Shown here in pieces: positions 655 to 63,600 of a stretch of DNA of 64,000 nt. Below the pieces are notes generated by a model, which worked only from the letters and a program-made list of their open reading frames with translations, was not told the origin of the DNA and did not search any database. A program made the position numbers and the translations under genes. Source of the stretch: Gammaproteobacteria bacterium (lineage in GTDB: Bacteria > Pseudomonadota > Gammaproteobacteria > GCA-001735895); assembly GCA_050298595.1 (NCBI GenBank), contig JBNKUM010000075.1:29597-93596 (forward strand), read 5' to 3'. The stretch's first letter is position 1. Each line of letters begins with the position of its first letter.

Positions 655-1632
655 TTATCTGCGTCCAGGTATTAAATCGCTGGCCCAGTCTTCCTGCAGA
701 ATGCGGATGATTTGATCCATGTTTTCAGGTCGTTTCTCGGGGGCTTTTTCCAGGCACTGCAAACAAAGCGTTTCCAGCAGTTTGGGTACCGGGTATTTAC
801 TTACGCTGGAAAGCTTTGGAGGTTGCTGGTTCTCAACCGCATCGAGGAGTTCATAGGTCTTGTCACTATCAAACGGCGTTTGTCCGGTGAGTAGTTCATA
901 TAATACTGAGCCTAAGCTATAGATGTCGGTACTAAAGCTAATATCCGGGTCGCGTCGGATCTGTTCTGGTGACATATAACAGATGGTCCCCTGTAATTGA
1001 CCATGGCCAGTCATAGACTTGTCAGAGTTGGTGATTCCCTTGCCGGGTTGCTGATCCTGTAAATCGACGCTGCTGCCATCCTTATTCCATACCTTGGCCA
1101 GCCCCCAGTCTAAAAGTAAAACCTCACCATAGGGCCCGACCAGTATATTTTCGGGTTTAATATCTCGGTGTGCGACCCCATGAGCATGTGCATAACCCAG
1201 AGCCTGGGCGATCTGTTCGATAACCTCTATCAGCTGGGTCAGGTCGTAGCGCTCACGATAATCCATGATTTCGCGCAAGGTATAACCGTGTACCAGCTTC
1301 ATGGTGAAATAGTAATTACCTTTCCGGTCACGCCCAATCTCATAGGTGGGTACGGTATTAGGGTGCTGCAGCATGGCAGAAACACGTGCCTCGCGTAGCA
1401 GACGGCGCTGTTCGATAGGGTCGTCCACAAATTCCGAGCGCAGGGTTTTATAGGCAACCACGCGTGCCAGATGCAGATCCTTACAGGATTTGATCAGTGA
1501 TTTCCCACCTTTTGCAATGTCACTCAAAAACAGATAGCGCGTGTTCGGGTTGAGGACCTCGGGCAGGGGGCGATCCGTTTCTTCGAGAAATACATCGCTG
1601 TATTCTTTGGGAGGCTGTTTAAACTTCAGCAT
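655..1632 (-). CDS. Hanks-type Ser/Thr protein kinase (soluble)
   Basis: VAYK, HRDIKPEN, DWG, YMSPEQ, DIYSLG motifs. Confidence 0.9.
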   Translation of the reverse strand: MLKFKQPPKEYSDVFLEETDRPLPEVLNPNTRYLFLSDIAKGGKSLIKSCKDLHLARVVAYKTLRSEFVDDPIEQRRLLREARVSAMLQHPNTVPTYEIGRDRKGNYYFTMKLVHGYTLREIMDYRERYDLTQLIEVIEQIAQALGYAHAHGVAHRDIKPENILVGPYGEVLLLDWGLAKVWNKDGSSVDLQDQQPGKGITNSDKSMTGHGQLQGTICYMSPEQIRRDPDISFSTDIYSLGSVLYELLTGQTPFDSDKTYELLDAVENQQPPKLSSVSKYPVPKLLETLCLQCLEKAPEKRPENMDQIIRILQEDWASDLIPGRR

Positions 1633-1734
1633 GAGTTAGCTATTAGTTAGTTGTGTGTCATTGAGTTTAGCATTACTGTTTCATAGTACGAGCTTTTTTG
1701 CTTCGATTGAGCATTAGCAAGGGGGTGGATATTA

Positions 1735-1753
1735 TAGGGACAGAGTCATTGAT
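1735..1753 (+). repeat. RAYT-flanking REP-like motif (left); related inverted motif at about 2544-2560
   Basis: gggacagagtcattgat left of the RAYT; gtctcaccccttgat right of it. Confidence 0.45.
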
Positions 1754-1812
1754 CAGTGAAAAGTGATATGCTAGCCTTTTACTTTTCTCATCAATAAAAG
1801 TATTCAAAAACA

Positions 1813-2535
1813 ATGCCCGGACTTCCTCGTTTTGTCATTCCTGGTCAACCCCAGCATATTATCCAGCGTGGAAATAACTGACAGGAGATATTTCGAGAAG
1901 AGGGTGATTACCTGTTCTATCTGGAAAAGCTTACAGATGCAGCTAACAAGCACCAGTGTAAAATTCATGCCTATGTATTGATGGGCAATCATGTGCATTT
2001 ACTTGTTACACCGCATAGAGAAAATGGTATTGGTAAAATCATGCAAATGCTGGGACGCTATTATGTCCAGTACTTTAATTATAGCTATCAACGAAATGGA
2101 ACCCTGTGGGAAGGACGCTACAAAGCAACGCTGATTGATAGTAAGGAATACCTGCTAACCTGCATGCGCTATATAGAACTCAATCCGGTTAGAGCGCAAA
2201 ACTGGGTAAATCATCTCTCGAAATACCCCTGGTCGAGTTATTCATTCAATGCATTGGGTATGGAGAATCAACTGATAACATCTCATCAGGAATACAAGCG
2301 TCCAGGACGAACTGATGCTGAGCGACAATCTGCTTATCGACAACTATTTCGATCAAGAATACCGGAGATGACACTGGCAGAAATTCGCGAAGCGACTAAT
2401 AAAGCCTGGGTAATAGGAAGTGATAAATTCAAATCGAGAATAGCGCGTAAAATAGATAGGCCTGTACAATCAAGAGGGCATGGAGGGGATAGGAAGTCAA
2501 AGGCTGATAAGAAAGGGTCGAAAGCGAAAGTTTAA
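1813..2535 (+). pseudogene. REP-associated tyrosine (HUH/Y1) transposase, RAYT, with in-frame TGA at 1879-1881
   Basis: ATG 1813 gives MPGLPRFVIPGQPQHIIQRGNN*QEIF..HAYVLMGNHVHLL..YIELNPVRA..YPWSS; the stop replaces the conserved Arg of RGNNR. Confidence 0.88.
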
Positions 2536-2553
2536 TAGCTTAAGTCTCACCCC

Positions 2554-2634
2554 TTGATTTTGTGAGAAAAACAAAAATCACAGTATTCATTTTTCGTGCG
2601 CTGATAATTTATGGATGAATTATTCAGGGCTTTC
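2554..2634 (+). mobile_element. Degenerate right half of the MITE seen at 58024-58173
   Basis: ttgattttgtgagaaaa..ttttcgtgcgctgataatttatggatgaattattcagggctttc aligns with 58095-58173. Confidence 0.75.
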
Positions 2635-2653
2635 TTAAAAAAAATTAAAGTGA

Positions 2654-4135
2654 TTAAGAGATTGCACTTATAGAGTGAAAACAAACTTTATTTCTACCAG
2701 ACTCTTTAGCTTCATACAGTGCTTCATCAGCTCTTTTTATACAGTCTTTTACCTCATCGCTATCTGCACTTATTGACACTCCAAAACTAGCGGTTTTTTG
2801 TCCAACATCAGAAAATGGATATTTTTCAATTTTTCTTCTTATTGATTCAGCAAGTTTCATTATCCCCACCTCATTGGCTTCGGGAATTATTATTAGAAAC
2901 TCTTCTCCTCCCCATCGCCCAACTACATCAATAAATCTACAGCTATTTTGCAATAAATTCGCGAAATCACATAGAACGCTATCGCCTACTTGATGACCAT
3001 AAGTATCATTAACCTGTTTGAAATAATCTATATCTATTAGAATTAAGCCCATTTCACGAGAATATCTTTTTCCTCTTTCTAATTCATAATTTAAAACATC
3101 TTCTAGTTTAGTACGATTATAAATTCCTGTTAGCTTATCGGTGATAGCGAGTTTTTCCATCTTTAAAGCAAGATTTTGGTTTTGTACAAATTTATATGCA
3201 GTAAATAATATTAAAATAATAAATAAAATATTTGCGATTATGAAATAGGTCAGCTCTATCATCCATTTATCTATAGCTGTTGCTATAGGTAAGCCTACAA
3301 CGATAACAAAAGGGAGATTTTCAATTTTACGAAATGTCCATACTCGGTCAACACCATCTATAGGGGAAACTACACGGACAGACATCTCTGAGATATTTTC
3401 TGTGTTTGTAAAGTTCTCTAAAATCTTATTATCTAACTTTTTCCCTATGGACTTTTTAATAAAAGGTACACGGGCTAAAAGCATTCTATTAAGATCAAAG
3501 ATACTAATAGCAATATCTTTGTTTGCATCATTGCTAACAAGCTTGTCTAACCAGTGTTGAAAAAAATATAAATCTAAGCCTATTAGACCAAACCCAGCCA
3601 TAGTATTGTTATTTTGCATAACTGGATATGTTACTGTCACATTCATTTGTTTTGTTGAAGAGACAGACATATTGCTTGTCTTTAATTTTTCATAAGGTTG
3701 CTTAAAAGCTTCCCCACAATATGGATAATTTTTTAGATTTTTTCCAAGATTAACACCTATTGAGGTATGGGTGATGACACAGTTTTTATCAAATAAGCCA
3801 AGGAATAGTATCTTATCACTTAATTTTGAGAGGTCTTTTACTAATGCTGTTTTACTATCATGTACCTTTTGATTAGTTATAGGATATACCAACTCATGAG
3901 GTTTTGTATTTGAAGTAAGCTGTTGCAGTATCAGTTTTGGTATTTTAAATGATTCCAAGATCCATTGAGAGACAAGATAACTGTTTGTTTTAGTTTCGTT
4001 GGTTACTTTCTCGAAGGTATTGTCGTATGATGTTTTTAATACATAAATACTAATTAAGTTAATTATAATTATTAGTGTAAACGTCAAAACCAATATTTGA
4101 GCTTTTGATAAATTAGGTTTATCGCTCACAAACAA
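2654..4135 (-). CDS. Membrane diguanylate cyclase with periplasmic Cache-type sensor
   Basis: Two TM segments, DKLTGIYNR, DIDYFKQVNDTYGHQVGD, RWGGEEF; visibly AT-rich. Confidence 0.9.
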   Translation of the reverse strand: MFVSDKPNLSKAQILVLTFTLIIIINLISIYVLKTSYDNTFEKVTNETKTNSYLVSQWILESFKIPKLILQQLTSNTKPHELVYPITNQKVHDSKTALVKDLSKLSDKILFLGLFDKNCVITHTSIGVNLGKNLKNYPYCGEAFKQPYEKLKTSNMSVSSTKQMNVTVTYPVMQNNNTMAGFGLIGLDLYFFQHWLDKLVSNDANKDIAISIFDLNRMLLARVPFIKKSIGKKLDNKILENFTNTENISEMSVRVVSPIDGVDRVWTFRKIENLPFVIVVGLPIATAIDKWMIELTYFIIANILFIILILFTAYKFVQNQNLALKMEKLAITDKLTGIYNRTKLEDVLNYELERGKRYSREMGLILIDIDYFKQVNDTYGHQVGDSVLCDFANLLQNSCRFIDVVGRWGGEEFLIIIPEANEVGIMKLAESIRRKIEKYPFSDVGQKTASFGVSISADSDEVKDCIKRADEALYEAKESGRNKVCFHSISAIS

Positions 4136-4254
4136 CCTTTTGCAGAAAAAATATTAGAATTGTGTAGTTAAGAGTATAAGGAGAATAAATGCAACCCTCT
4201 TGGGTATCAAGGCAGGAAACTGGAGTCAGGATACGTCTGAAATAACCGGCTACC

Positions 4255-4338
4255 CGGGAGCATAGAAGACAGCCACCATCTGAATCACCAATGAAACGGG
4301 AGCATAGAGGACAGCCACCATCTGAATCACCAATGAAA
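4255..4338. repeat. 42-bp tandem duplication (2 copies, 1 mismatch)
   Basis: cgggagcatagaRgacagccaccatctgaatcaccaatgaaa at 4255-4296 and 4297-4338. Confidence 0.95.
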
Positions 4339-4408
4339 TGACAGCTTTCACTCAAAACCGGAAATTTTAGAATACTGGAATTCAATGGAGCAGACTCGTT
4401 GATTGCTG

Positions 4409-4587
4409 CGCGTGAAAGATGCATATCCTTCACAGGATTTGATCAGCTATTTTCCAGCTTTCGCGATGTCATCGAGGCACATGTAGCGAGTATTAGTGCT
4501 AACAGGCCATGGGAGGTTGTTTAAACTTCAGCATGAGTCAGCTTTTAGTTAGTTGTGCCTGTTCTTGAGTTTAGTGTTACTGTTCAT
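4409..4587 (-). pseudogene. Degenerate duplicate of the 5' end and upstream region of the Ser/Thr kinase (1461-1684)
   Basis: Shares acaggatttgatcag, tgggaggYtgtttaaacttcagcatgagt and ttgagtttag..ttactgtt with 1461-1684; has an internal deletion. Confidence 0.85.
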
Positions 4588-4730
4588 GTAAATGACCAGT
4601 TTTTGGAGGATTGCTGGTCCAGGTTTAATCAATGAGTTTGAGTTTATGTGGCTTAAAGTCTGTACAAACAAGTGACATTGCTTATAATCCTCGCCCCGGT
4701 ATCACTGTAGATACCGGATTATTTATTTAA

Positions 4731-4762
4731 TTGGGTTCCCTCGCCCCCATTAACAAAAAGGT
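4731..4762 (+). ncRNA. preQ1 class I riboswitch (enterobacterial yhhQ type)
   Basis: ttgggttccctcgcccccattaacaaaaaggt immediately before the yhhQ ATG, overlapping the RBS. Confidence 0.85.
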
Positions 4763-4767
4763 AAATC

Positions 4768-5439
4768 ATGAGTATTCAAATATCCGCGCAAACGCGCAAA
4801 GCTCTGACCTTTCTGGTCGCCTGTCATCTTTTGATCATTGCCGCTAGTAATTATCTGGTGCAATTGCCGTTTACCCTGTTGGGCTTTAATACGACCTGGG
4901 GCGCATTTAGCTTCCCGTTTATTTTTCTAGCCACCGATTTGACGGTACGTATCTTTGGCGCGAATAATGCGCGACGTATTGTCCTGCGAGCAATGATTCC
5001 GGCTTTGTTGCTGTCCTATGTACTATCTGTATTGTTTTACGAAGGGGCTTTTCAAGGCTTTGCACAGCTGGCCGAGTTTAACCTGTTTGTGGCTCGTATA
5101 GCGCTGGCGAGTTTTCTGGCCTATGTGTTTGGACAGTTTCTTGATGTGCTGGTATTTAACCGTTTGCGCCGTAGTCGAAGCTGGTGGGTAGCACCTGCTA
5201 CATCTACTGTGCTAGGCAGTGCGCTGGATACCCTGTTGTTTTTCAGTATTGCATTTTACCAGAGCCCTGATGTCTTCATGGCAGAGCACTGGGTGGAGAT
5301 TGCGCTGGTTGATTTCTCTTTTAAGATGGTTGTCAGTCTATTGTTATTTCTGCCTGCCTATGGTGTGTTGTTGAGCTATCTGGCAGACAGGCTTACTGAT
5401 CAGGCAGAGGCGGTTCAGCCATTGCGAGCAAGAGCTTAA
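4768..5439 (+). CDS. yhhQ: Queuosine precursor (preQ0/preQ1) transporter
   Basis: IAASNYLVQLPF..TTWGAFSFPFIFLATDLTVRIFG; riboswitch upstream. Confidence 0.92.
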   Translation: MSIQISAQTRKALTFLVACHLLIIAASNYLVQLPFTLLGFNTTWGAFSFPFIFLATDLTVRIFGANNARRIVLRAMIPALLLSYVLSVLFYEGAFQGFAQLAEFNLFVARIALASFLAYVFGQFLDVLVFNRLRRSRSWWVAPATSTVLGSALDTLLFFSIAFYQSPDVFMAEHWVEIALVDFSFKMVVSLLLFLPAYGVLLSYLADRLTDQAEAVQPLRARA

Positions 5440-5518
5440 GCTGTGGTTAGCGATTTCATTTTAAGCGTGTATCAGGCTTAATAAGCACAATCTTCGTCAG
5501 TATTAAAAAGTAATCGCT

Positions 5519-6073
5519 ATGCATAAAATCTATATCACTGCTCAGGAGCTACTGGAAAGCTCCTTCAGGCTCGCACACACTATCTATGAAGATGATTTCC
5601 GTCCACAGTTTATTGTCGGTATCTGGCGTGGTGGTTCTCCAATTGGTATCGCTGTGCAGGAGTACTTTGAGTATAAAGGGGTTCACACGGATCATATCTC
5701 TGTGCGCACCTCGTCTTACTATGGTATTAATAAGCAGTCTAAGGAGATACGCGTGCATGGCCTGCATTACCTGCTGGAAAATGCTAATTCCGAAGATAGC
5801 CTGTTGATTGTGGATGATGTGTTTGATTCCGGGCGTAGCGTGGATGCCTTGATTAAGCAGATTAAAAAGCAGTCGCGTCTAAATACTCCTTCCGATATCC
5901 GTGTTGCCTGTACCTGGTATAAGCCATCCAAACGCGCTGTGGATATCGAGCCAGATTATTATATCCATAGCAGTGACGAGTGGCTGGTATTTCCGCATGA
6001 GCTATGCGGTCTGACGCGCGAGGAAGTGGCTGAGGGTAAGTCGGATTTAAAACAGATCATTGACCTGTTTTAA
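5519..6073 (+). CDS. Type I (purine) phosphoribosyltransferase
   Basis: VGIWRGG, PRPP motif LLIVDDVFDSGRS, WLVFPHE. Confidence 0.85.
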   Translation: MHKIYITAQELLESSFRLAHTIYEDDFRPQFIVGIWRGGSPIGIAVQEYFEYKGVHTDHISVRTSSYYGINKQSKEIRVHGLHYLLENANSEDSLLIVDDVFDSGRSVDALIKQIKKQSRLNTPSDIRVACTWYKPSKRAVDIEPDYYIHSSDEWLVFPHELCGLTREEVAEGKSDLKQIIDLF

Positions 6074-6089
6074 ATCCGGGTTGTCAGGG

Positions 6090-7979
6090 CTATATTAAAT
6101 CATCCAGATTGGGGATGTTGCTGTAGATGCGACGGATCTGCAGCTCTGAATCCAGCAAGGCGTCCGCACACTGTGGATCAAAGTGACTGCCTTTACCGGC
6201 ACGCACTTCCTTGAAAGCGGTATCCAGCTCGTAAGCGGGCTTGTATACACGTTCCGAAACCATAGTATCAAAGGCATCTGCCAGTGCGCAGATGCGACCT
6301 TCAAGTGGTATATCGTTACCAGCTAAACCTTGCGGATAGCCATATCCATTCCATTTTTCATGGTGGCTAAGGATGATACGCCTGGCCATAGCCAGCATTT
6401 CGGTTTCCGGATTTTTAAGAATATCGGCACCGATTTGAGGATGGGTTTTGATAATTTCCCATTCCTGAATATCCAGTTTTTCAGGTTTTAGCAGAATTTG
6501 GTCCGGAATACCCAGATTGCCAATATCATGCATGGGTGACGCATGCATGATGGTTTCACAAAACTGCTTATCCTTGCCCAGGGACAGGGCTATCAAGCCT
6601 GCCAGTTGTGACATATGGGTTAAATGATTGCCGGGGGTTGGGTTTTTATATTCGGCTGCCTGAGAAAGCCTGAAAATAGTCGCAAGGCTATTTCTCTGTA
6701 ATGATTTATTCAGGTCTTTATTTACTTTTTGCTGCTTGTTGAGCATATCCGTCATCGAAGAAAAAGCGTCTGCGCTTTGCTGTATCTCGGCATAACGTGT
6801 CTTAATAGGCAGGTTATTCCAGTTTCCCTGCATGATAGCGTTCGATCGTTGCCCCAGCTTGGCAATCGGTTTGCTCATGCTGCGCGCAAGCGCTATACCC
6901 AGCAGGCTGGCGATAATTCCGATGATGAGGGCCAGGATGATATTGTTACGCTGATTTTGGTGGAACACACCCAGGTAATCGTCTTCAGGGACATAGATGC
7001 CGAAAATCCATGGCCATTGATGTTGTTGAAACGGGGTGAAAACAGCCTGGTAATTGGTATCGTCGTAGTTGAAACGCGTGATCTGCTTTTTATCCAGGTG
7101 ATAGGTGTCAGCCAATGGTAGCTTTAATGAACGGAAGGCTGCGCGTGCAATAGGGTCATCTATTTCGGTGATGCGAGTAAAGGTCAGCTGATCAAAACTC
7201 CGCCGACTGATCTTTTCTGAATCTGGGTGAGCCAGTACCTGCCCCTGAGTATCGATAATAAATGCTGAGCCAGATTGACCTATCTTTAAGCCGGAAAGGA
7301 AGGATGATATCTGGTTGATGGTGATATCAACACCAATAACCCCATCAATCGCTTTGTTACCCGATGAAACGTAAACAGGACTGGATATGGTGATGCCGGG
7401 TTGCTGAGAAGTATAAAAGATATAGGGCTCGGTCCAGACTAGCTGATTGAGCCTGGTGGCTTTGATATACCAGGGACGTACCCGTGGGTCATAGCTATCT
7501 CTACTGTCCTGTTCTTGCAGCACAGATTTAAATTCATCATCACGCCAGTTGATATCCACTCTCCGTTGGCCATCCTCTATGGATATGATCTTGCTGCGAT
7601 AGCTGGCTTGTGAATGAGATTGATCACGCATAACGTAAACAAATCCACCATCAGTAGATCCATAATATATGCCTGAAAACTGGGGATGTAGGTTCAACAG
7701 CTCAAAGAAATAGCGTTCCATCGATTGTATATTCAGCTTGCTGACTACATTGTTATTGGCCAGTTTTTGTGTCAGTTTGGCAGCCAGTTGAGCTGGTTCC
7801 AGAAAGCCTACTGATCGATCTATTGCTTCGTTGGAGATGGTCTCCATGACTTCATGTGCATGTCCAATCAAGACCTTTTCAGTTGATTGATAGGTGGAAA
7901 ACATAATGCTGGAAACAGTGATAAGCATCAGGCCAACAATGCTTAGAAACAGGGTTTTTTTTATGGACATCGATGTCAC
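6090..7979 (-). CDS. Cache/HAMP HD-GYP cyclic-di-GMP phosphodiesterase
   Basis: YDPRVRPWY Cache motif, HDIG, HHEKWNGYGYP. Confidence 0.88.
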   Translation of the reverse strand: MTSMSIKKTLFLSIVGLMLITVSSIMFSTYQSTEKVLIGHAHEVMETISNEAIDRSVGFLEPAQLAAKLTQKLANNNVVSKLNIQSMERYFFELLNLHPQFSGIYYGSTDGGFVYVMRDQSHSQASYRSKIISIEDGQRRVDINWRDDEFKSVLQEQDSRDSYDPRVRPWYIKATRLNQLVWTEPYIFYTSQQPGITISSPVYVSSGNKAIDGVIGVDITINQISSFLSGLKIGQSGSAFIIDTQGQVLAHPDSEKISRRSFDQLTFTRITEIDDPIARAAFRSLKLPLADTYHLDKKQITRFNYDDTNYQAVFTPFQQHQWPWIFGIYVPEDDYLGVFHQNQRNNIILALIIGIIASLLGIALARSMSKPIAKLGQRSNAIMQGNWNNLPIKTRYAEIQQSADAFSSMTDMLNKQQKVNKDLNKSLQRNSLATIFRLSQAAEYKNPTPGNHLTHMSQLAGLIALSLGKDKQFCETIMHASPMHDIGNLGIPDQILLKPEKLDIQEWEIIKTHPQIGADILKNPETEMLAMARRIILSHHEKWNGYGYPQGLAGNDIPLEGRICALADAFDTMVSERVYKPAYELDTAFKEVRAGKGSHFDPQCADALLDSELQIRRIYSNIPNLDDLI

Positions 7980-28622: not shown

Positions 28623-29726
28623 ATGGCAATCAGCAGCCCTAAAGAAATAATTGAAGATATTCGCCAAGGTAAGATGGTCATTCTCATGGATGACGAAGAT
28701 CGCGAAAACGAAGGCGATATCCTGATCGCAGCGGATAAAATAACTCCCGAGGCCATCAACTTTATGGCTACCCATGGTCGTGGTTTGATCTGTCTGACGT
28801 TAACGGCTGAACGTTGCCAGCAGCTAAACCTGCCATTGATGGTTAGTAAAAATACAGAGAGCTTCGAAACTAACTTTACAGTGTCTATAGAAGCAGCAAA
28901 GGGTATCCTGACAGGTATCTCAGCGAAGGACCGTTGTCGTACCATACAGGCTGCCGTTGCAGCAGATGCAATGCCAGAAGATATCGTGATGCCGGGACAT
29001 ATCTTCCCTATCATGGCTCGCCCCGGTGGTGTACTGACCAGAGCAGGGCATACTGAAGCAGGTTGTGACATAGCCCGCATGGCCGGATTGACGCCTGCTA
29101 GTGTAATCGTAGAAATTTTAAACGATGATGGCACTATGGCACGCAGACCCCAACTGGAGATCTTTGCTGAAGAACATGGCATAAAGCTCGGCACCATCGC
29201 TGATCTTATTGCTTACCGATATGCCAATGAAAAGACCATAAAGAGAGTGGATGAATCACCAATACAGACTCCTTTCGGTGAATTCAAGGTTGTTATTTTT
29301 GAAGATTTAATCGATGGCGATATGCATTTCGCACTTATCAAAGGCGACATTGATCCGGATGAAGCAACTCTGGTGCGTGTAGTACATACTCAAAATGCAC
29401 TGGTCGATTTATTACAATCTGGTGATAAGACATGGACCCTGCCGAATGCTATGCAAAAGATCGCGGATGAAGGTGGCGTGCTAGTTATACTGGCCAGTCA
29501 GGAAACCAATCAATCGGTGCTGTATAAAATCCACAAACTCTGTTCAAGAGAGGTTGCGCCAGCAAATACACCAACTCCAGATCAGTTCAATCAGGTCGGT
29601 GCCGGTTCACAAATTCTTTCTGATCTGGGTATCTCAAAGATGCGTCTGTTGACATCCACCTCTCAGCGTTATCATGCCCTGTCCGGTTTTGGTCTTGAGG
29701 TGGTTGAATATATCTGCGAACACTGA
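28623..29726 (+). CDS. ribB: DHBP synthase fused to a degenerate GTP cyclohydrolase II domain (RibBX type)
   Basis: [20 protein letters not shown]; C-terminal domain lacks the Zn-binding cysteines. Confidence 0.88.
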
Positions 29727-58235: not shown

Positions 58236-59614
58236 TTAAAGATCATTCAGAGGGCTTGAAGTCTTGCCATTAGAAAAATTAGCCAGATGAGTGTAAATCA
58301 TCGTGGTTGAAACATCGGCATGGCCGAGTAGCGATTGAATTGTACGAATATCCATGCCTTTTTCGAGTAAGTGGGTGGCGTAACTATGTCGGAAAGTATG
58401 GCAGGTAACGCGTTTATTAATTTTCAAATCACGAGCAGTTGTGCGTACACGTTTTTGAATAGTGCTCTCGTTAATATGATGTCTCTGGATAATGCCGGAT
58501 CGGGGGTCAACGGATAATTTTTTACTGGGGAAAACATACTGCCATACCCATTGCTTGTTAGATTTTGTGTATTTGTTTTGTAAGCCAGGCGGCATAAATA
58601 CGCTACTGTAACCGGTTTTCAGATCTTCATCATGCTGTTGTTTAATGCTAGTTAGGTGCGATTTTAATTGATCAATGAGCCGAGCAGGCAACGGAACAAC
58701 TCTCTCTTTGTTCCCTTTGTTTTCCCGTACAATAATCTGATTAAAGCCAAAATCTATATCATGTACTCTAAGCCTCATCGCCTCCATAATTCTTAAACCT
58801 GCACCATAAAGAAGAGAAACGACTATCCATTGTATGCCTTCCAGAGAATTTAGAATATCTCCCACCTCTTGTCGTGTGAGAATAACTGGCAGCTTTTGGC
58901 GCGGTTTGGCACGAATAAAGTTGCTGATATCGCCAAGCTCCCGCTTACGAACCTGTTTAAAATAGTAAGACAGCGCATTTAGTGCAGCACTCTGAGTGTT
59001 TGGGGCAACCTCGAGTTGAACCGCCAGATGTTCAATAAATGAAACGACATCTGAAGGGCTAATATCATCTACTTTTTTTTCTGGAATAAATCTGAAAAAC
59101 CTTGGGTTCAGTCGGTATAAGATTTTTCAGTACGTATACTGCTGTTCTTTCTACGTATTGCTATGCGGAGTTGATCAACCTAATTGTTGAAAGCTTCATT
59201 AACGGGCGTCTTTGGCTTATAGGTCAAATCTGACCTGCTAAGTTTGACGGGGTGCTGAGAGCGGTAATGAGTATCATGCTCTGGCGGAAGGTCAACACAG
59301 GAGGATTTCCAATACTGCCAGTCAATTTCCTTATATAGAGGCGCACGGATAGATAAGAATAAATAACTTAATGCATCGATGGCCTGTTTCTTTTGCCAGG
59401 AAGCCTTGTTGGATGAGTTGATCAGCTTTTCAAGAAAAGAAGATACTGACCGGCCGGTATGTTCTTTTAATCGAATTTCCTTACTATCCCGGATAAAAGC
59501 CTCACAATGACTCACATACCAGGAGTATAGATCAGACTTGATCTGGTACTCAGAAAGTTGAGATAAGTAATTGTTCCAGAAGTATTTTTCTTTTTCAGCC
59601 TGGTTCATTGACAA
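58236..59614 (-). pseudogene. intI: Integron integrase with N-terminal extension, inactivated
   Basis: YGAGLR, HTFRHSYATHLL, LGHADVSTTMIYTH and IntI patch WQYVFPS; TAG at 59180-59182, TGA at 59108-59110, frameshift near 59103. Confidence 0.92.
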
Positions 59615-59741: not shown

Positions 59742-60518
59742 TTGCAAGTTTGGATAAGAATCAGTTTTTATGGACTTCTGCTAATCACAGCAATGGTCGC
59801 ATATCTTAATTCTTCTATATCTTTATCTACGCTTCCCGAAAGCGACTGGAAAAATATCTTTTTTTCAACAATAAGCCTCATTTTCGCAATCGTAATATTT
59901 GACGGAACCATATACGCTTATGAATGGAAAAAGAAAGAGCGATCAAAACGAAGATTAAAACAAACTTTACGCCCAATATTCATAAAGATGCATGAACTGT
60001 GGTTCGGAATGGCGTATCACTCAATGAATCAAATAATGGGTGCCAACAAAGATGTCTTTTCGGAAGAGTATAAAATTGAAATATGCAAATACTTAGATTT
60101 GGAATGCGATGCCCCAGTATTAGGAAACGTGTCTTGGAGGGATTATCTATTTTCCAGTTTTGATACTTTTGAAAAAGAGCTGAACGAAATAAATGTATTG
60201 GCATTTACCATAGGCTGGGAAGATCTAGAAGATTCTATATCAAAATATTTGAATTCTGGATTCAACCAAAACATTCGAACCTATCTTTATTCAGCACGCT
60301 CTGTACCAGGTGGTCTGGTGAAACACCCCCACCTCAGAGTGTTTGGCCATCTGGGTAATACATGTTTCAGTGAGTACCTTGTATTCTTGGAAACGTTAAA
60401 CAGAATTCTTGGTTTGGATAACTTCGATTTCCACCAAGAAGAACGCTTGGAGCGCATTGGTGCAGCTAATGAATTTGGCAAATGCAGAATCCCTGCTACA
60501 CCAGTTAAGAATTTATGA
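59742..60518 (+). CDS. Integron cassette 1: hypothetical protein with two N-terminal TM segments
   Basis: AT-rich ORF between attI and attC1; ggaga RBS before TTG start. Confidence 0.75.
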   Translation: MQVWIRISFYGLLLITAMVAYLNSSISLSTLPESDWKNIFFSTISLIFAIVIFDGTIYAYEWKKKERSKRRLKQTLRPIFIKMHELWFGMAYHSMNQIMGANKDVFSEEYKIEICKYLDLECDAPVLGNVSWRDYLFSSFDTFEKELNEINVLAFTIGWEDLEDSISKYLNSGFNQNIRTYLYSARSVPGGLVKHPHLRVFGHLGNTCFSEYLVFLETLNRILGLDNFDFHQEERLERIGAANEFGKCRIPATPVKNL

Positions 60519-60542
60519 AGGCCAAGTTTATTAAGGCAAAAG

Positions 60543-60622
60543 AGCTAACAAGCGGGTCAAATACGCCCGCAAACTACGCGGGCTCGGACGCGCAAAAGAC
60601 GCGCGCCGTTTACCCTTATCGT
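60543..60622 (+). other. attC1, interrupted in its R' core (GT|TATAC, remainder at 62608-62612)
   Basis: AGCTAAC, gggtcaaa/tttaccc pairing with an extra C, GC-rich inner palindromes. Confidence 0.9.
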
Positions 60623-60734
60623 GTGTGCCGGGCATGGCACTTAACTAGAGAGGTGAAAGTCCTCTTACCAGGTATTCGCAGAGCCGAAGGTTAGTCAAAG
60701 GGCAAGGGCGTCATTGTGAGGTGGGGTCTGAAGG

Positions 60735-60783
60735 ACAGGTTTTTGCTCCTGCAAAACCTGCATTTCCACCATCCATGGTGGTC
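60735..60783. mobile_element. 49-bp two-hairpin mini-element (type A) in intron domain I
   Basis: Removal restores TCTGAAGG|AAG, as in IIC introns; near-identical copy at 62199. Confidence 0.85.
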
Positions 60784-60874
60784 AAGTCCAGGACAAAATC
60801 GCGGGGCGATGGACAAGAACCCAATATGAGGTGTGACGTATTCGGGGCCAGCGGGCACGTGACTGCTAAGCCCT

Positions 60875-60922
60875 CGGCTTTAGCCTCCTGCGTCGCACTA
60901 CCTCCTGCATCCATGCAGTCGT
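60875..60922. mobile_element. 48-bp two-hairpin mini-element (type B) in intron domain I
   Basis: 38/48 identical to 12602-12649, with a compensatory stem change. Confidence 0.8.
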
Positions 60923-61142
60923 CCATCTGCAAGCGGGATACGTTTTATAAATTGGGCGTTTACGCGATGAAAGTTAAGTGTCTTACCCCGGGAGGTCTGT
61001 ACTGTGTTGAAGGAGCAACTGACTATCGAGAGATCGATAGTGATCGCAGTACAGAAGTCAGCAGAAGGCATAATAGGTTGCACTCTCGCAACTTAAGGCC
61101 GGAACAAATCGAGGAGAGTACTCGTTGGAGAAGTATTACTAA

Positions 61143-62517
61143 ATGGCACCTGATAAGCAGATAACACTGCCTCTGGAAATTCCAGAGGGTGAATTGGTAA
61201 TGGGAGATTCAACTGAACCAAAATCCAGCTTTTGTTCATCATTACTTAATCGCATACTAGAGAGGAATAATCTAGTACGCGCGTTAAAACAGGTTCGTCG
61301 CAATAAAGGTGCTTCGGGTATCGACGGTATGAGCGTCAATGAACTACCTGATTTTCTCAAACAACACTGGCCCCAAATTCGGCAACAATTAATCGAAGGA
61401 ACCTATAGGCCAAAACCGGTTATGCGTGTCGAGATCCCCAAGCCAGATGGGCGTAGGCGAAAACTGGGCATACCAACTGCATTGGATTGACTGATCCAGC
61501 AGGCGATTGCACAGGTGCTGCAAGCAGAATGGGACGGTAACTTCCATGACAACAGTTATGGATTTCGCCCCAAACGCAATGCACACCAGGCACTCCAATA
61601 CGCGCAGGAAACGATCCGGCAAGGTAATCGCTGGGTCGTCGACTGTGATCTAGAAGCCTTCTTCGATAACGTGAACCATGATCTACTCATGACGCGTTTA
61701 AAAGACAGGCATCAAGACCCAAAGTTACTGAGATTAATCAACCGCTACCTCAAAGCGGGAGTCCAGATAGGCACTACGACAAAAGCCAGCATCCATGGCG
61801 TACCGCAGGGCGGCCCGCTGTCACCGATACTGTCTAACATCGTACTTAACCAACTGGACTGGGAACTCAATACCCGAGGGCACCGGTTCGTTCGCTATGC
61901 TGATGACTTTGTCGTATTCGTTAAAAGTCAGCAAGCAGGTGAGCGAGTCATGCATAGTCTACAGCGTTATATTGGGAATACACTCCGACTCAAAGTGAAC
62001 ACCCAAAAGAGTGCTGTAGACAGGCCCTGGAACAGAACCTTCCTCGGCTTTACGTTCAGCAGAAAGGGCTCGAAAATCAAGGTGAGTGATAAATCACTGA
62101 AGAAACTAAAAGCCACAGTCAGGCTGCTAAGCCGTCGAACGAGAGGCCATGCCTTATTACAGGTTATCGCAGACTTAAGAAAATCCCTGCTTGGTTGGAC
62201 AGGTTTATGCTCCTGCAAAACCTGCATTTCCACCATCCCGGGCGGTCAAAGCCTACTTCGATATAGCCGAAGTATTGAGTCCACTGCGAGATCTGGATAA
62301 ATGGATTCGACGACGATTGCGAAGTTACGTGTGGAAACAGTGGGGACGTAAAGGTTATAGGATGCTCAGGCGTCTGGGCGTAAAGCGGCAACTGGCCTGG
62401 AATACTGCCAAGTCAGCGCACGGCCCCTGGAGACTCAGCGCTAGTCCAGCACTTTACACTGCACTACCAAACAAGTACTTTAAGAACCTGGGGCTACCAG
62501 AGCTGGTAGCAAGATGA
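61143..62517 (+). pseudogene. Intron-encoded RT/maturase (no endonuclease domain), disrupted
   Basis: NKGASGIDG, IPKPDG..LGIPT, SYGFRP, GVPQGGPLSP, RYADD; TGA at 61488-61490 (ALD*LIQQA) and 49-bp insertion frameshift at 62199-62247. Confidence 0.92.
62199..62247. mobile_element. 49-bp mini-element (type A) in RT ORF
   Basis: Removal restores GGT TGG|AAA GCC TAC TTC (GWKAYF) and the reading frame. Confidence 0.9.
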
Positions 62518-62645
62518 ACACAAAGAGATTTGAACCGCCGTGGTACGTGATCCGTATGCCCGGTGGTGTGGGAGGAGGGGTGTCGTGAGGCATCCCCCTA
62601 TCCCGATTATACGGAATATTAGGACAAACCAACATTTGATATCTA

Positions 62646-63536
62646 ATGAAAAATCTAGAGAGACTAAGATTAATAAATCAAATCGCGGTTACCCTTCAAG
62701 AGGGGTATTCAACCAGCCAGATCAATGTATTTTTGGCTGGATTTGGAATTCCTAATTCTGGCGAACAAATTGTTCCATCTAAACGAGTGCACGTTGAAAA
62801 TAAGCTTTCAAACGAACCAGAATCAGTGATAATCAAAATTGCAAAAGAGCTGGAAATACCACTAGATCTAAAGATAGATCAGACTCATGAATCAATATCT
62901 CTTAAAGAAAACATTGTTTCTGCTCTCGAATCGAGTGACTTTTCTATCATCGATTTAATTCTAGATGAATACAATACGCCAAAGCATAGCCACTATGATT
63001 TTGATAATGCTAAGGAATACATCCTTTTCAAAATTAATGAATTATCGATAGATAAATTATATTCAATAAATGAATACCTAAATAAAAGAAAGAAAACGCA
63101 TGACAATCCCAAGCTATGGGGTAAATGCGCTCTGAGAGTATTTATTAGCCACCTATCAAAGGATAAACAGAAAGCAAAGGCCCTAGCTAAAGAGCTTAAA
63201 AATTACAATGCATCTGGATTTGTTGCGCATATTGATATTAAACCAAATGATGAGTGGCTAAAAACTATAGAGTCAGCTCTAGAGTCAATGGATGTTCTTC
63301 TTGCGCTAGTCACAGAGGGTTTTAAAGAAAGTGACTGGACGGTGCAAGAAATTGGCTTTGCCTTAGGAAAGGGTGTTCCGGTAGTTGCAATTCGAAATGG
63401 AATGGATCCCTTCGGATTTTTCGGGAAACGGCAGGCAATACCAGGAAACGGGCGCTATCCTAAAGATATTATTAATGACTTTATTTTAATAGCAAATGAA
63501 AAACTAGGTACCCACTTGAAACATGGGCCCGTATAA
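62646..63536 (+). CDS. Integron cassette 2: TIR-domain protein
   Basis: RVFISH..DK..A, FVAH.DI, ES.WT.QEIGFA (putative catalytic Glu); stop codon overlaps the attC2 inverse core. Confidence 0.85.
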   Translation: MKNLERLRLINQIAVTLQEGYSTSQINVFLAGFGIPNSGEQIVPSKRVHVENKLSNEPESVIIKIAKELEIPLDLKIDQTHESISLKENIVSALESSDFSIIDLILDEYNTPKHSHYDFDNAKEYILFKINELSIDKLYSINEYLNKRKKTHDNPKLWGKCALRVFISHLSKDKQKAKALAKELKNYNASGFVAHIDIKPNDEWLKTIESALESMDVLLALVTEGFKESDWTVQEIGFALGKGVPVVAIRNGMDPFGFFGKRQAIPGNGRYPKDIINDFILIANEKLGTHLKHGPV

Positions 63537-63600
63537 CAATGCGCTCGTGTGGGATGCTGCGCCGCGTTGCGGCTTGCACCCCCCAGCTTAAACGTTATGT
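63531..63600 (+). other. attC2
   Basis: GTATAAC ... palindromic stem ... aaacGTTATGT; GTATAAC complements the reconstructed GTTATAC. Confidence 0.9.

What the first reader, a model, noticed from the sequence alone, without database searches (positions are those of the whole stretch)
60844..60874. Putative EBS1 loop (ACGU) matches the top-strand attC core
Seen: at the position equivalent to the IIC EBS1 hairpin the sequence is gcgg-gcACGTga-ctgc (ACGT at 60857-60860). ACG pairs with the CGT just 5' of the intron, and attC2 carries a full 4-nt match (aaACGT|TATGT). Known: bottom-strand IIC-attC introns pair EBS1 with a TTGT IBS1. Inference: an EBS1 change could explain the strand switch and predicts attC2 as another target.
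Basis: partly seen in the sequence, partly recalled or inferred. Interest (0 to 1): 0.72.

Follow-up and report, generated by a model that had tools for sequence, protein, structure and literature searches.

The report
Intron loop reading attC top strand
A four-base loop in a mobile self-splicing intron pairs with the DNA just before its insertion point in an integron recombination site, which fits this intron family lying in the same direction as the captured genes; close relatives already sit in drug-resistance plasmids.

Summary
A group IIC intron occupies 60623-62607 on the + strand. It is inserted GT|TATAC in the R' core of attC1, co-oriented with the cassettes of a chromosomal integron whose intI is broken. 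The hairpin 60844-60873 has the loop GCACGUGA, and ACGU (60857-60860) is EBS1. Across 45 distinct insertion events with 15 loop types, loop positions 3-6 pair with the last four exon bases (mean 3.33 of 4). Other registers give 1.2-2.2, and 0 of 20,000 permutations reach the observed value.

The ACGU loop is invariant in a supported clade from Endozoicomonadaceae, Marinobacter, Halomonas and two class 1 integron plasmid types. Exons in that clade end GCGT (19), ACGT (3), TCGT (2) or GCAT (2) of 26. In 28 of 34 events the intron follows a same-strand open frame, and in none an opposite one. Classical IIC-attC introns have ACAA or ACAU with TTGT.

ACGU could still wobble-pair with UUGU. An AU test does not separate the two attC lineages. 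This copy is defective, with three 48-49-nt insertions, one causing a frameshift, plus a stop codon. One top-strand intron was reported in 2012. This is a new member of a known kind.

The parts
58236..59614 (-). Integron integrase gene intI, broken into at least two frames
   Evidence: 58236-58865 matches TIGR02249 'integron integrase' at 291.9 bits (cut-off 265), profile positions 109-314. 59180-59614 matches positions 20-78 weakly. Stops lie between the two frames.
59742..60518 (+). Cassette 1 open frame (258 aa, no family match)
60542..60622 (+). attC1, 5' part: R'' GAGCTAAC, branched stem, then TTATCGT up to the splice site
   Evidence: Sequence read. DNA fold with the intron removed in silico, -22.5 kcal/mol.
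60619..60622 (+). IBS1 (TCGT). CGT at 60620-60622 pairs with ACG of EBS1. G60621-T60622 are the first two bases of the R' core.
60623..62607 (+). Group IIC intron, 1985 nt. Without the three insertions it is 1839 nt; relatives measure 1836-1842.
   Evidence: Rfam RF02001 and RF01998. 5' GTGTG and 3' ...CCCGAT. Intron lengths of relatives.
60736..60784 (+). 49-nt two-hairpin repeat (e1) inserted in the conserved GAAGGA|AG motif of domain I
   Evidence: Absent from all full-length relatives. Insert-free form seen in runs X5 and X20. Other copies listed.
60844..60873 (+). EBS1 hairpin: outer stem, inner stem, 8-nt loop GCACGUGA
60857..60860 (+). EBS1 = ACGU (loop positions 3-6)
   Evidence: Covariation with exon ends over 15 loop types
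60874..60921 (+). 48-nt repeat (e2) inserted directly 3' of the EBS1 hairpin
   Evidence: Absent from relatives. Insert-free joint 60873>60922 in X5, X13 and X20. Genome copies, some in tandem.
61143..62517 (+). Intron-encoded protein gene (RT plus maturase, no endonuclease domain), broken
   Evidence: RVT_1 and GIIM matches. In-frame TGA at 61488-61490 and a frameshift caused by the insertion at 62200-62248.
61488..61490 (+). In-frame TGA at the conserved Arg of the PTALD-R-LIQQ motif
   Evidence: Contigs of runs X1 and X5 read C at 61488, which gives CGA.
62200..62248 (+). Second e1 copy (49 nt) inside the maturase region, at TTGGA|AAGCC, shifting the frame
   Evidence: The same insertion is present in L038 and L023.
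62534..62607 (+). Domains V and VI. The basal stem of domain V begins CCGCCG, i.e. a CGC triad.
   Evidence: Fold at -39.6 kcal/mol, z = -3.63, 0 of 200 shuffles as good
62608..62612 (+). Start of the 3' exon, TATAC. T62608 is IBS3 and the rest completes the R' core GT|TATAC.
   Evidence: R'' of attC2 (GTATAAC, 63532-63538) is the exact reverse complement of G60621-T60622 plus 62608-62612
62646..63536 (+). Cassette 2 open frame, TIR domain protein
   Evidence: PF13676 TIR_2, E 1.5e-14. Weak similarity to Thoeris ThcB4.
63532..63600 (+). attC2, unoccupied. ACGT at 63592-63595 precedes T63596 of the R' core GTTATGT.

Best explanation
The stretch is the EBS1 stem-loop of domain I of a group IIC intron. 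The intron lies in the top, cassette-sense strand of attC1, one base 3' of the G|TT crossover point. Loop positions 3-6 (ACGU) pair with the last bases of the 5' exon: three pairs here with CGU, and four at GCGU or ACGU sites. As in other IIC introns, the upstream hairpin, here the folded attC top strand, stands in for IBS2, and the T at +1 is IBS3.

The first two EBS1 bases (AC) read the conserved GT of the GTT core, which is the same on both strands. The third and fourth (GU) read the strand-specific bases just 5' of the core. These are GC, AC or TC on the top strand and TT on the bottom strand. An ACGU lineage therefore fits top strands, while the classical IIC-attC introns (ACAA or ACAU) fit bottom strands.

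Shown here: anatomy, pairing, covariation, clade-wide site preference and co-orientation. Inferred: reverse splicing into single-stranded DNA, priming by the replication fork because the protein lacks an endonuclease domain, and that EBS1 is causal for strand choice. The copy in the window is an inactive relic.
For: Boundaries and strand: one search gives the boundaries and the exact R''/R' complementarity that defines cassette 2. intI is on the - strand.

Hairpin position: Rfam places the hairpin at the consensus position. Stem covariation is 78 of 80 and 60 of 60 cells.

EBS1-IBS1 covariation: 55 rows gave 45 distinct events and 15 loop types. Loop positions 3-6 average 3.33 of 4 pairs, against 1.18, 1.62, 1.71 and 2.24 in the other registers. 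Permuting exons among loop types gives 2.00 +/- 0.22, and 0 of 20,000 permutations reach the observed value. Examples: CGGT with ACCG, GAAA with TTTC, CAAC with GTTG, ACAA with TTGT.

The ACGU clade: 26 distinct events end in GCGT (19), ACGT (3), TCGT (2) or GCAT (2). The loop is invariant while the stems vary. The 3' exon starts with T in 23 of 23. In 28 of 34 events a frame of at least 100 aa ends 15-170 nt upstream on the same strand, in 0 on the opposite strand, and in 6 there is none.

Annotated plasmids: the intron is co-oriented with the cassettes at CAAACGT|TAGATGC (pPp47, aacA4 attC) and CAAGCGT|TAGATGC (pVb0499, aadA1 attC). A classical intron on a K. pneumoniae plasmid lies opposite to blaIMP-4, with TTGT and ACAA.

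Tree: the ACGU rows form one side of a branch with 99/92 support.

Both strands of one attC: in L079 and L107 an ACGU intron and a CAAU intron face each other across a single attC.

Literature: IIC introns use a 3-4 bp IBS1-EBS1 pairing plus a stem-loop (PMC1702495, passages). IIC-attC introns insert at TTGT/T in the bottom strand (PMC7923331 and PMC3001079, passages).
Against: - There is no experiment; all of this is comparative.
- At the window's own site only 3 pairs form, with U-U at -4. In 19 of 26 events the fourth pair is a U.G wobble.
- ACGU could pair with bottom-strand UUGU through a G.U wobble, so the absence of TTGT sites (0 of 34) needs a further determinant.
- Two of 26 events (own-genome C9 and L079) sit at GCAT, with a C-A mismatch next to the splice site. 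The C9 copy lies 6 nt 3' of the expected GT|T.
- Some loop types fit poorly: TTTG with TTTA gives 2 of 4, and CGGT with CGAT occurs where a copy follows another intron.
- Within the clade the loop never varies, so the covariation evidence comes only from comparison between clades.
- The hairpin's folding energy alone is unremarkable.
- One clade member (L050) lies after a terminator-like hairpin rather than an attC, so the lineage may read 'hairpin plus GCGT' in general.
- The test for an R'' heptamer upstream is only modest: 14 of 22 against 8 of 22 in a control region, and 2 of 500 shuffles reach it.
Confidence: 0.8

Rival explanations
1. EBS1 is mapped correctly, but it does not choose the strand. 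The choice is made by how the intron RNA and protein recognise the hairpin (bulged bases, spacing), or by which strand is single-stranded at the replication fork. The ACGU loop has merely adapted to what that strand offers.
For: - ACGU can pair with UUGU through a G.U wobble, yet 0 of 34 events are at TTGT.
- In B.h.I1 the stem-loop contributes to exon recognition beyond IBS1 (PMC1702495, passages).
- GCAT sites are tolerated in 2 of 26 events.
- GC skew of the contig is positive (+0.07 overall, 9 of 10 bins). This fits the + strand being the lagging-strand template, which endonuclease-less introns are said to prefer (recalled; PMC4424553 says only that the fork supplies the primer).
Against: - IBS1 mutations abolish correct splicing in B.h.I1, whereas loss of the stem is partly tolerated (PMC1702495).
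- ACAA or ACAU cannot pair with C at -3, so for the classical lineage EBS1 does exclude top strands.
- The loop is invariant over about 50% protein divergence, which argues that it is under selection for the target.
Confidence: 0.15
2. EBS1 lies in another loop or another register, for example GUG at loop positions 5-7, and the ACG/CGU match is chance.
For: - GUG could pair with both CGU and CAU through wobbles, which would cover the two GCAT sites.
- A 3-nt match in one 8-nt loop is not rare by chance (my arithmetic, about 0.09).
Against: - Register test: positions 5-8 give 2.24 of 4 and positions 4-7 give 1.71 of 4, against 3.33 for positions 3-6.
- Rfam aligns the hairpin to the consensus EBS1-type hairpin.
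- The loop frame GC-NNNN-(G/C/A/T)(A/T/C) is shared by all 15 loop types.
Confidence: 0.03
3. The intron did not home into attC1 here. It arrived already inserted, carried with cassette DNA by integrase or by homologous recombination, so the local site says nothing about targeting in this genome.
For: - The copy is defective.
- intI is broken.
- The other copies in the genome are 5' fragments; a 3' end is found only in C75.
- An almost identical attC plus exon occurs in another genome: L052 ends ...CCCTAATCGT|.
Against: - Origin by inheritance does not change the pairing logic, since the first insertion still obeyed it.
- Four other copies in this genome sit at different attC-like sites ending GCGT, TCGT, GCGT and GCAT, which indicates several insertions within the lineage.
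Confidence: 0.02

Closest known systems
Group IIC-attC introns (S.ma.I2, N.e.I1, and the intron opposite blaIMP-4 on K. pneumoniae plasmids)
   Same: Class C ribozyme. RT-maturase protein without an endonuclease domain. Insertion inside attC at GT|T of a GTTRRRY motif after the folded hairpin. EBS1 in the same GC-NNNN-GA loop. The first two EBS1 bases are AC.
   Different: - Those introns lie in the bottom strand, opposite to the cassettes, with IBS1 TTGT and EBS1 ACAA or ACAU (PMC3001079, PMC7923331).
- This one lies in the top strand, with IBS1 NCGT and EBS1 ACGU.
- The free tree puts them in different clades, though the AU test does not reject one joint clade.
The 'unusual target' group IIC intron of Enterobacter cloacae (Rodriguez-Martinez, Nordmann, Poirel 2012), and the co-oriented introns in class 1 integrons on pVb0499-type IncC plasmids and on pPp47
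   Same: Top strand of attC, same orientation as the cassettes, same loop GCACGUGA, exon ends GCGT or ACGT, 3' exon TAGATGC. RT region 60.7% (L128) and 77.7% (L126) identical to the window.
   Different: - Those are intact copies in mobile class 1 integrons. The window's is a decayed copy in a chromosomal integron of an environmental gammaproteobacterium.
- I could not read the 2012 paper (not held). That L128 is the published intron is my inference from the cassette array, and I do not know whether its EBS1 was mapped there.
Terminator-targeting IIC introns (B.h.I1, O.i.I1)
   Same: A 3-4 bp EBS1-IBS1 pairing, no EBS2, a hairpin upstream, insertion a few bases 3' of the stem, and sense orientation behind a gene (PMC1702495). 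One member of the clade (L050) is itself behind a terminator-like hairpin.
   Different: Their IBS1 is usually part of the U-run. Here the IBS1 is the GC-rich spacer plus the core of attC.

Membership tests
Group II intron, bacterial class C (IIC) | Domain I-IV ribozyme structure recognised by curated models | tested here: met
   RF02001 at 78.7 bits (gathering score 32) and RF01998 at 53.8 bits (gathering score 35)
Group II intron, bacterial class C (IIC) | 5' GUGYG and 3' AY ends | tested here: met
   GTGTG at 60623 and ...CCCGAT ending at 62607. The ends are fixed by alignment to relatives.
Group II intron, bacterial class C (IIC) | Domain V with a CGC triad in place of AGC and a shortened distal stem (PMC1702495) | tested here: met
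   Basal stem CCGCCG/CGGUGG in the fold of 62524-62607. The triad was read by eye.
Group II intron, bacterial class C (IIC) | Protein with RT and maturase domains and no endonuclease domain | tested here: met
   Only RVT_1 and GIIM match, both in the window's pieces and in the intact 441-aa relative from L126
Group II intron, bacterial class C (IIC) | 3-4 bp EBS1-IBS1 pairing, a hairpin in place of IBS2, IBS3 at +1 | tested here: met
   EBS3 itself was not located.
IIC-attC lineage (sensu Quiroga/Centron and Leon/Roy) | Insertion inside an attC site | tested here: met
   GT|TATAC in R' of attC1
IIC-attC lineage (sensu Quiroga/Centron and Leon/Roy) | Bottom strand, opposite to cassette transcription | tested here: not met
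   The intron and the cassette frames are on the + strand and intI is on the - strand
IIC-attC lineage (sensu Quiroga/Centron and Leon/Roy) | IBS1/IBS3 consensus TTGT/T | tested here: not met
   TCGT/T here. 0 of 26 events in the clade are at TTGT.
IIC-attC lineage (sensu Quiroga/Centron and Leon/Roy) | Membership of the monophyletic IEP subset that holds N.e.I1 and S.ma.I2-like introns | tested here: inconclusive
   The free tree separates them (99/92 and 100/99). The AU test does not reject a joint clade (p = 0.351). Only 225 columns were used, there were 2 classical rows, and the sample was chosen by likeness to the window.
Top-strand attC IIC introns (E. cloacae type) | Same orientation as the cassettes, in the top strand of attC | tested here: met
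   Annotated parallels.
Top-strand attC IIC introns (E. cloacae type) | Sequence relationship to the published intron | not testable with these tools
   The paper (PMC3256610) is not held. Relationship to the co-oriented plasmid introns L126 and L128 is shown.

The most novel reading that the evidence does not exclude
ACGU-EBS1 introns may be a dedicated lineage of the non-recombining attC strand that also helps make new cassettes. They are co-oriented with genes, and they insert both behind ordinary terminator hairpins that end in GCGT (L050) and at GCGT|T of attC sites. Recombination between two such copies, followed by splicing, would therefore leave any gene's terminator hairpin joined to a TTRRRY core. 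That product is a proto-attC in the correct orientation, which is something the antisense IIC-attC introns cannot deliver so directly.
Probability: 0.07. Interest if true: 0.8.

Novelty: new member of a known kind. Interest (0 to 1): 0.45.

Why it matters
The result gives a simple base-pairing account of why some integron-borne group II introns lie in the sense direction. A 2022 survey could only call this 'a different invasion process' (PMC9229058). Two EBS1 bases read the strand-specific bases next to the GTT core.

Sense-oriented introns are transcribed together with the cassettes and could in principle splice out of that transcript. Their effect on cassette expression should therefore differ from that of the antisense IIC-attC introns, which block Pc-driven transcription and supply their own promoter (PMC3001079).

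The lineage links chromosomal integrons of marine Gammaproteobacteria with class 1 integrons on clinical and wildlife plasmids. That makes it useful as a marker of exchange between those pools.

The rule is directly testable by EBS1 swaps.

Tried and rejected
- The pattern search for AAACGTTATG with 2 mismatches showed no enrichment: 70 matches against 58.7 expected. I used it only to confirm the exact site.
- My first regex scan for hairpins found nothing because the pattern was written wrongly. The second missed many. I replaced them with nhmmer plus an anchored search.
- A crude genome-wide attC finder gave 193 scattered hits and was too noisy to count CGT|T sites, so it was dropped. No census of free attC targets in this genome was made.
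- The R'' heptamer test gave only modest support.
- Iterating an HMM for the e2 repeat collapsed to 1 hit. e2 copy numbers therefore rest on BLAST and nhmmer single-sequence hits.
- Laying the runs gave no contig that joins 60622 to 62608. Neither an empty attC1 nor spliced exons were seen. These runs are contigs, which show presence and not absence, so this says nothing either way.
- The shares of words in salt-marsh and other runs were not used to name a habitat.
- EBS3 was not located, because IBS3 is T in all 23 clade members and so offers no covariation.
- O. iheyensis was not aligned.
- Four papers were not held: the E. cloacae intron paper of 2012, the two Leon and Roy papers of 2009, and Robart 2007. 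Quiroga and Centron 2009 was seen only as a reference. Whether any of them maps the ACGU EBS1 or describes the Marinobacter/Endozoicomonadaceae clade is unknown to me.
- Searches for a printed description of top-strand attC introns returned only PMC7923331, PMC3001079, PMC4424553 and PMC9229058 as relevant.
- Supplementary files were not opened. Figure S2 of PMC9229058 and the supplements of PMC7923331 may bear on orientation and EBS assignments.

Full report
**Setting.** The last 6 kb of the window is the start of a chromosomal integron. An integron integrase gene lies on the - strand. Frame 58236-58865 scores 291.9 bits on TIGR02249 (cut-off 265), and frame 59180-59614 matches the N-terminal part weakly. 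Stops lie between the two frames, so the gene is broken.

On the + strand follow these elements:
- cassette 1 (59742-60518, no family match)
- attC1
- a group II intron
- cassette 2 (62646-63536, TIR domain)
- attC2
- the start of a third cassette (DUF3592), where the contig ends

**Intron and its site.** Rfam places RF02001 at 60710-60981 (78.7 bits) and RF01998 at 61019-61100. The intron starts GTGTG at 60623 and ends CCCGAT at 62607.

The boundaries are confirmed independently by integron logic. The R'' of attC2 (GTATAAC, 63532-63538) is the exact reverse complement of G60621-T60622 joined to TATAC (62608-62612). Cassette 2 therefore begins TTATAC, and the intron sits GT|TATAC, one base 3' of the G|TT crossover and in the cassette-sense (top) strand.

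The intron belongs to class C on three counts:
- Domain V has the CGC triad, and domains V-VI fold at -39.6 kcal/mol with z = -3.63.
- The protein has RVT_1 and GIIM domains only.
- A branched hairpin precedes the site.

**The observation.** The exon ends TATCGT. attC2 reads AAACGT|TATG at 63590-63599. Taken alone, a 3-nt match is weak evidence, and the hairpin's energy is ordinary (z = -1.42).

**Relatives.**
- A scan of species-representative genomes with the RT region found that 207 of 499 candidate stretches encode a relative. The best 80 became loci L046-L125.
- The plasmid collection gave at least 5000 records, 9 of them at 60-80% identity.
- The closest is pPp47 of Proteus penneri at 77.7%. 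There the intron follows aac(6')-Ib4 in a class 1 integron and is co-oriented with the cassettes.
- A second type occurs on eight plasmids from Aeromonas, E. coli, Shewanella, Klebsiella, Enterobacter and Vibrio. It follows aadA1 and is again co-oriented.
- A K. pneumoniae plasmid carries a classical intron opposite to blaIMP-4.
- The window's own genome holds four further 5' fragments of the window's type, in C9, C53, C118 and C22.
- It also holds classical TTGT-type copies in C18, C56 and C74.

**Mapping EBS1.** In an alignment of 49 domain I sequences made without structural input, the hairpin is conserved with covarying stems: the inner stem pairs in 78 of 80 cells and the outer stem in 60 of 60, over 20 distinct hairpins. 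The loop has the frame GC-NNNN-NN.

I collected 72 intron 5' ends. A loop and at least 8 exon bases were available for 55 rows, which represent 45 distinct events and 15 loop types.
- Loop positions 3-6 pair antiparallel with the last four exon bases at a mean of 3.33 of 4 per loop type.
- The other four registers give 1.18, 1.62, 1.71 and 2.24.
- Permuting exons among loop types gives 2.00 +/- 0.22, and 0 of 20,000 permutations reach 3.33.

Poor fits exist and were kept in the count: TTTG with TTTA (2 of 4), TAGG with CCCA (3 of 4, non-contiguous), and CGGT with CGAT where a copy follows another intron.

**The ACGU clade.** All 27 rows with the loop GCACGUGA end in CGT except one, which ends in CAT. 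After de-duplication and the addition of plasmid and own-genome copies there are 26 events:

| Exon end | Events |
|---|---|
| GCGT | 19 |
| ACGT | 3 |
| TCGT | 2 |
| GCAT | 2 |

- The 3' exon starts with T in 23 of 23, mostly TA or TG as in TRRRY.
- In 28 of 34 distinct events the largest frame of at least 100 aa that ends 15-170 nt upstream is on the intron's strand. In 0 it is on the other strand, and in 6 there is none.
- Upstream sequences commonly show the top-strand signature ...TAACAA...GCGT|.
- A heptamer complementary to R' is found in 14 of 22, against 8 of 22 in a control region.
- One member (L050) lies behind a terminator-like hairpin that ends in GCGT.

**Comparison with classical introns.** Classical introns show ACAA with TTGT (L127 and own C18) and ACAU with TTGT (N. 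europaea, a named IIC-attC intron in PMC3001079). The lineages therefore differ at EBS1 positions 3-4, which read the bases just 5' of the GTT core. That these bases belong to the unpaired spacer between the R and L boxes of attC is recalled knowledge, not something tested here. In L079 and L107 an ACGU intron and a CAAU intron face each other across a single attC.

**Phylogeny.** In a tree of 58 RT regions (225 columns) the 23 ACGU rows lie on one side of a branch with 99/92 support, together with 2 rows whose 5' ends were not available. The two classical rows form a separate pair at 100/99. An AU test does not reject a tree that holds the two groups together (delta lnL 5.92, p = 0.351). Whether the top-strand lineage arose from bottom-strand ancestors is therefore open.

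**Limits of the interpretation.**
- ACGU can still form three pairs with UUGU if G.U is allowed, so EBS1 alone does not forbid bottom strands. The total absence of TTGT sites points to an added determinant.
- The window's own site has three pairs.
- The GCAT sites show some tolerance of mismatch, or mutation after insertion.
- GC skew of the contig is positive. That fits insertion into the lagging-strand template, but this is a weak inference.

**State of this copy.** The intron is 1985 nt. Relatives measure 1836-1842 nt. The difference is made up by three insertions:
- a 49-nt repeat at 60736-60784, inside the conserved GAAGGA|AG motif
- a 48-nt repeat at 60874-60921, directly after the EBS1 hairpin
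- a second 49-nt copy at 62200-62248, which shifts the maturase frame

There is also an in-frame TGA at 61488. Contigs of public runs show insert-free forms of both domain I sites. They also read C at 61488, which would give CGA (runs X1 and X5). The copy in the window is a relic. attC2 is a sequence-compatible site for the lineage, but it is not a live prediction for this copy.

**Literature.**
- PMC7923331 (passages read) states the TTGT/T bottom-strand rule. [quoted passage not shown]
- PMC9229058 (passages read) notes a co-oriented intron in Shewanella algae and suggests 'a different invasion process'.
- PMC1702495 (passages read) gives the IIC rules of exon recognition.
- The primary 2012 paper was not held.

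**Verdict.** The mechanism is well supported by comparison across relatives. The kind is already known from at least one published case. What this analysis adds is the clade-wide rule and the breadth of the lineage.

Noticed in passing
window 60736-60784 and 62200-62248; also G000 C9, C53, C74, C66, C108; L017-L023, L029, L031, L033, L038-L040: A 49-nt two-hairpin repeat (e1) is always inserted after GGA or GGG (GAAGGA|A, TTGGA|A, CTGGA|A), with no visible target duplication. It sits in the conserved AGGAA motif of several unrelated group II introns and also in open frames, and copies are 92-98% alike across genera. Insert-free forms exist in runs X5 and X20. It may be a miniature element moved by a Y1 transposase; the genome has 26 Y1_Tnp matches. 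That idea is untested.
   Followed up: partly
window 60874-60921; L006-L012 (G000 C80, C115, C100, C56, C51, C21, C109): A related repeat of about 48 nt (e2) occurs at many intergenic places in the genome, sometimes as tandem arrays of 2-3 units whose second hairpin shows compensatory changes. In C9 and C53 the same intron site holds a longer insertion that begins like e2.
   Followed up: partly
window 61488: The TGA that interrupts the RT is read as C (CGA, Arg) in contigs of runs X1 and X5. The stop is therefore strain-specific or an assembly difference.
   Followed up: partly
window 61076 to 62544: Run X1 holds a contig that joins 61076 to 62544 at depth 66, against about 37 for the ORF. 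This looks like an ORF-less derivative of the intron. The shorter side of the joint is only 25 letters, so it is weak.
   Followed up: no
L079 about 2138-2183 and L107 about 6450-6496: Two group IIC introns of different lineages lie head to head across one attC of about 44 nt. An ACGU-type intron is on one strand and a CAAU-type intron (start GTACG, exon ...CTTG| or ...TTTG|) is on the other.
   Followed up: partly
G000 C74:12830-12966 (L005), C18, C56: The same genome carries classical TTGT-type IIC-attC introns. The C74 copy appears ORF-less. It has the e1 repeat at the same GAAGGA|A site and a further insertion of about 29 nt inside its EBS1 loop.
   Followed up: partly
window 58236-59614 (-): The integron integrase gene is interrupted by stops and frame changes, so cassette recombination here would need an integrase supplied from elsewhere.
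   Followed up: partly
L088 (Rhodothermales chromosome), 1542-6200: There are tandem arrays of short intron units (659 nt) and full copies. Some copies are inserted directly after the 3' end of another copy, with exon ...CCCGAT|.
   Followed up: no
window 28723-28823 (-): Rfam match to V_AS9 (Vibrio antisense RNA) at 55.5 bits, just above its gathering score of 50. The window's genome family has only 79 species genomes, and the intron's nearest relatives are from Endozoicomonadaceae.
   Followed up: no
window 62646-63536: Cassette 2 encodes a TIR-domain protein with weak likeness to Thoeris and retron-TIR anti-phage proteins. It may be a defence gene carried as an integron cassette.
   Followed up: no
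L050 (Kistimonas chromosome) about 2160-2231: A member of the ACGU clade sits behind a terminator-like hairpin plus T-run that ends in GCGT, not behind an attC.
   Followed up: no
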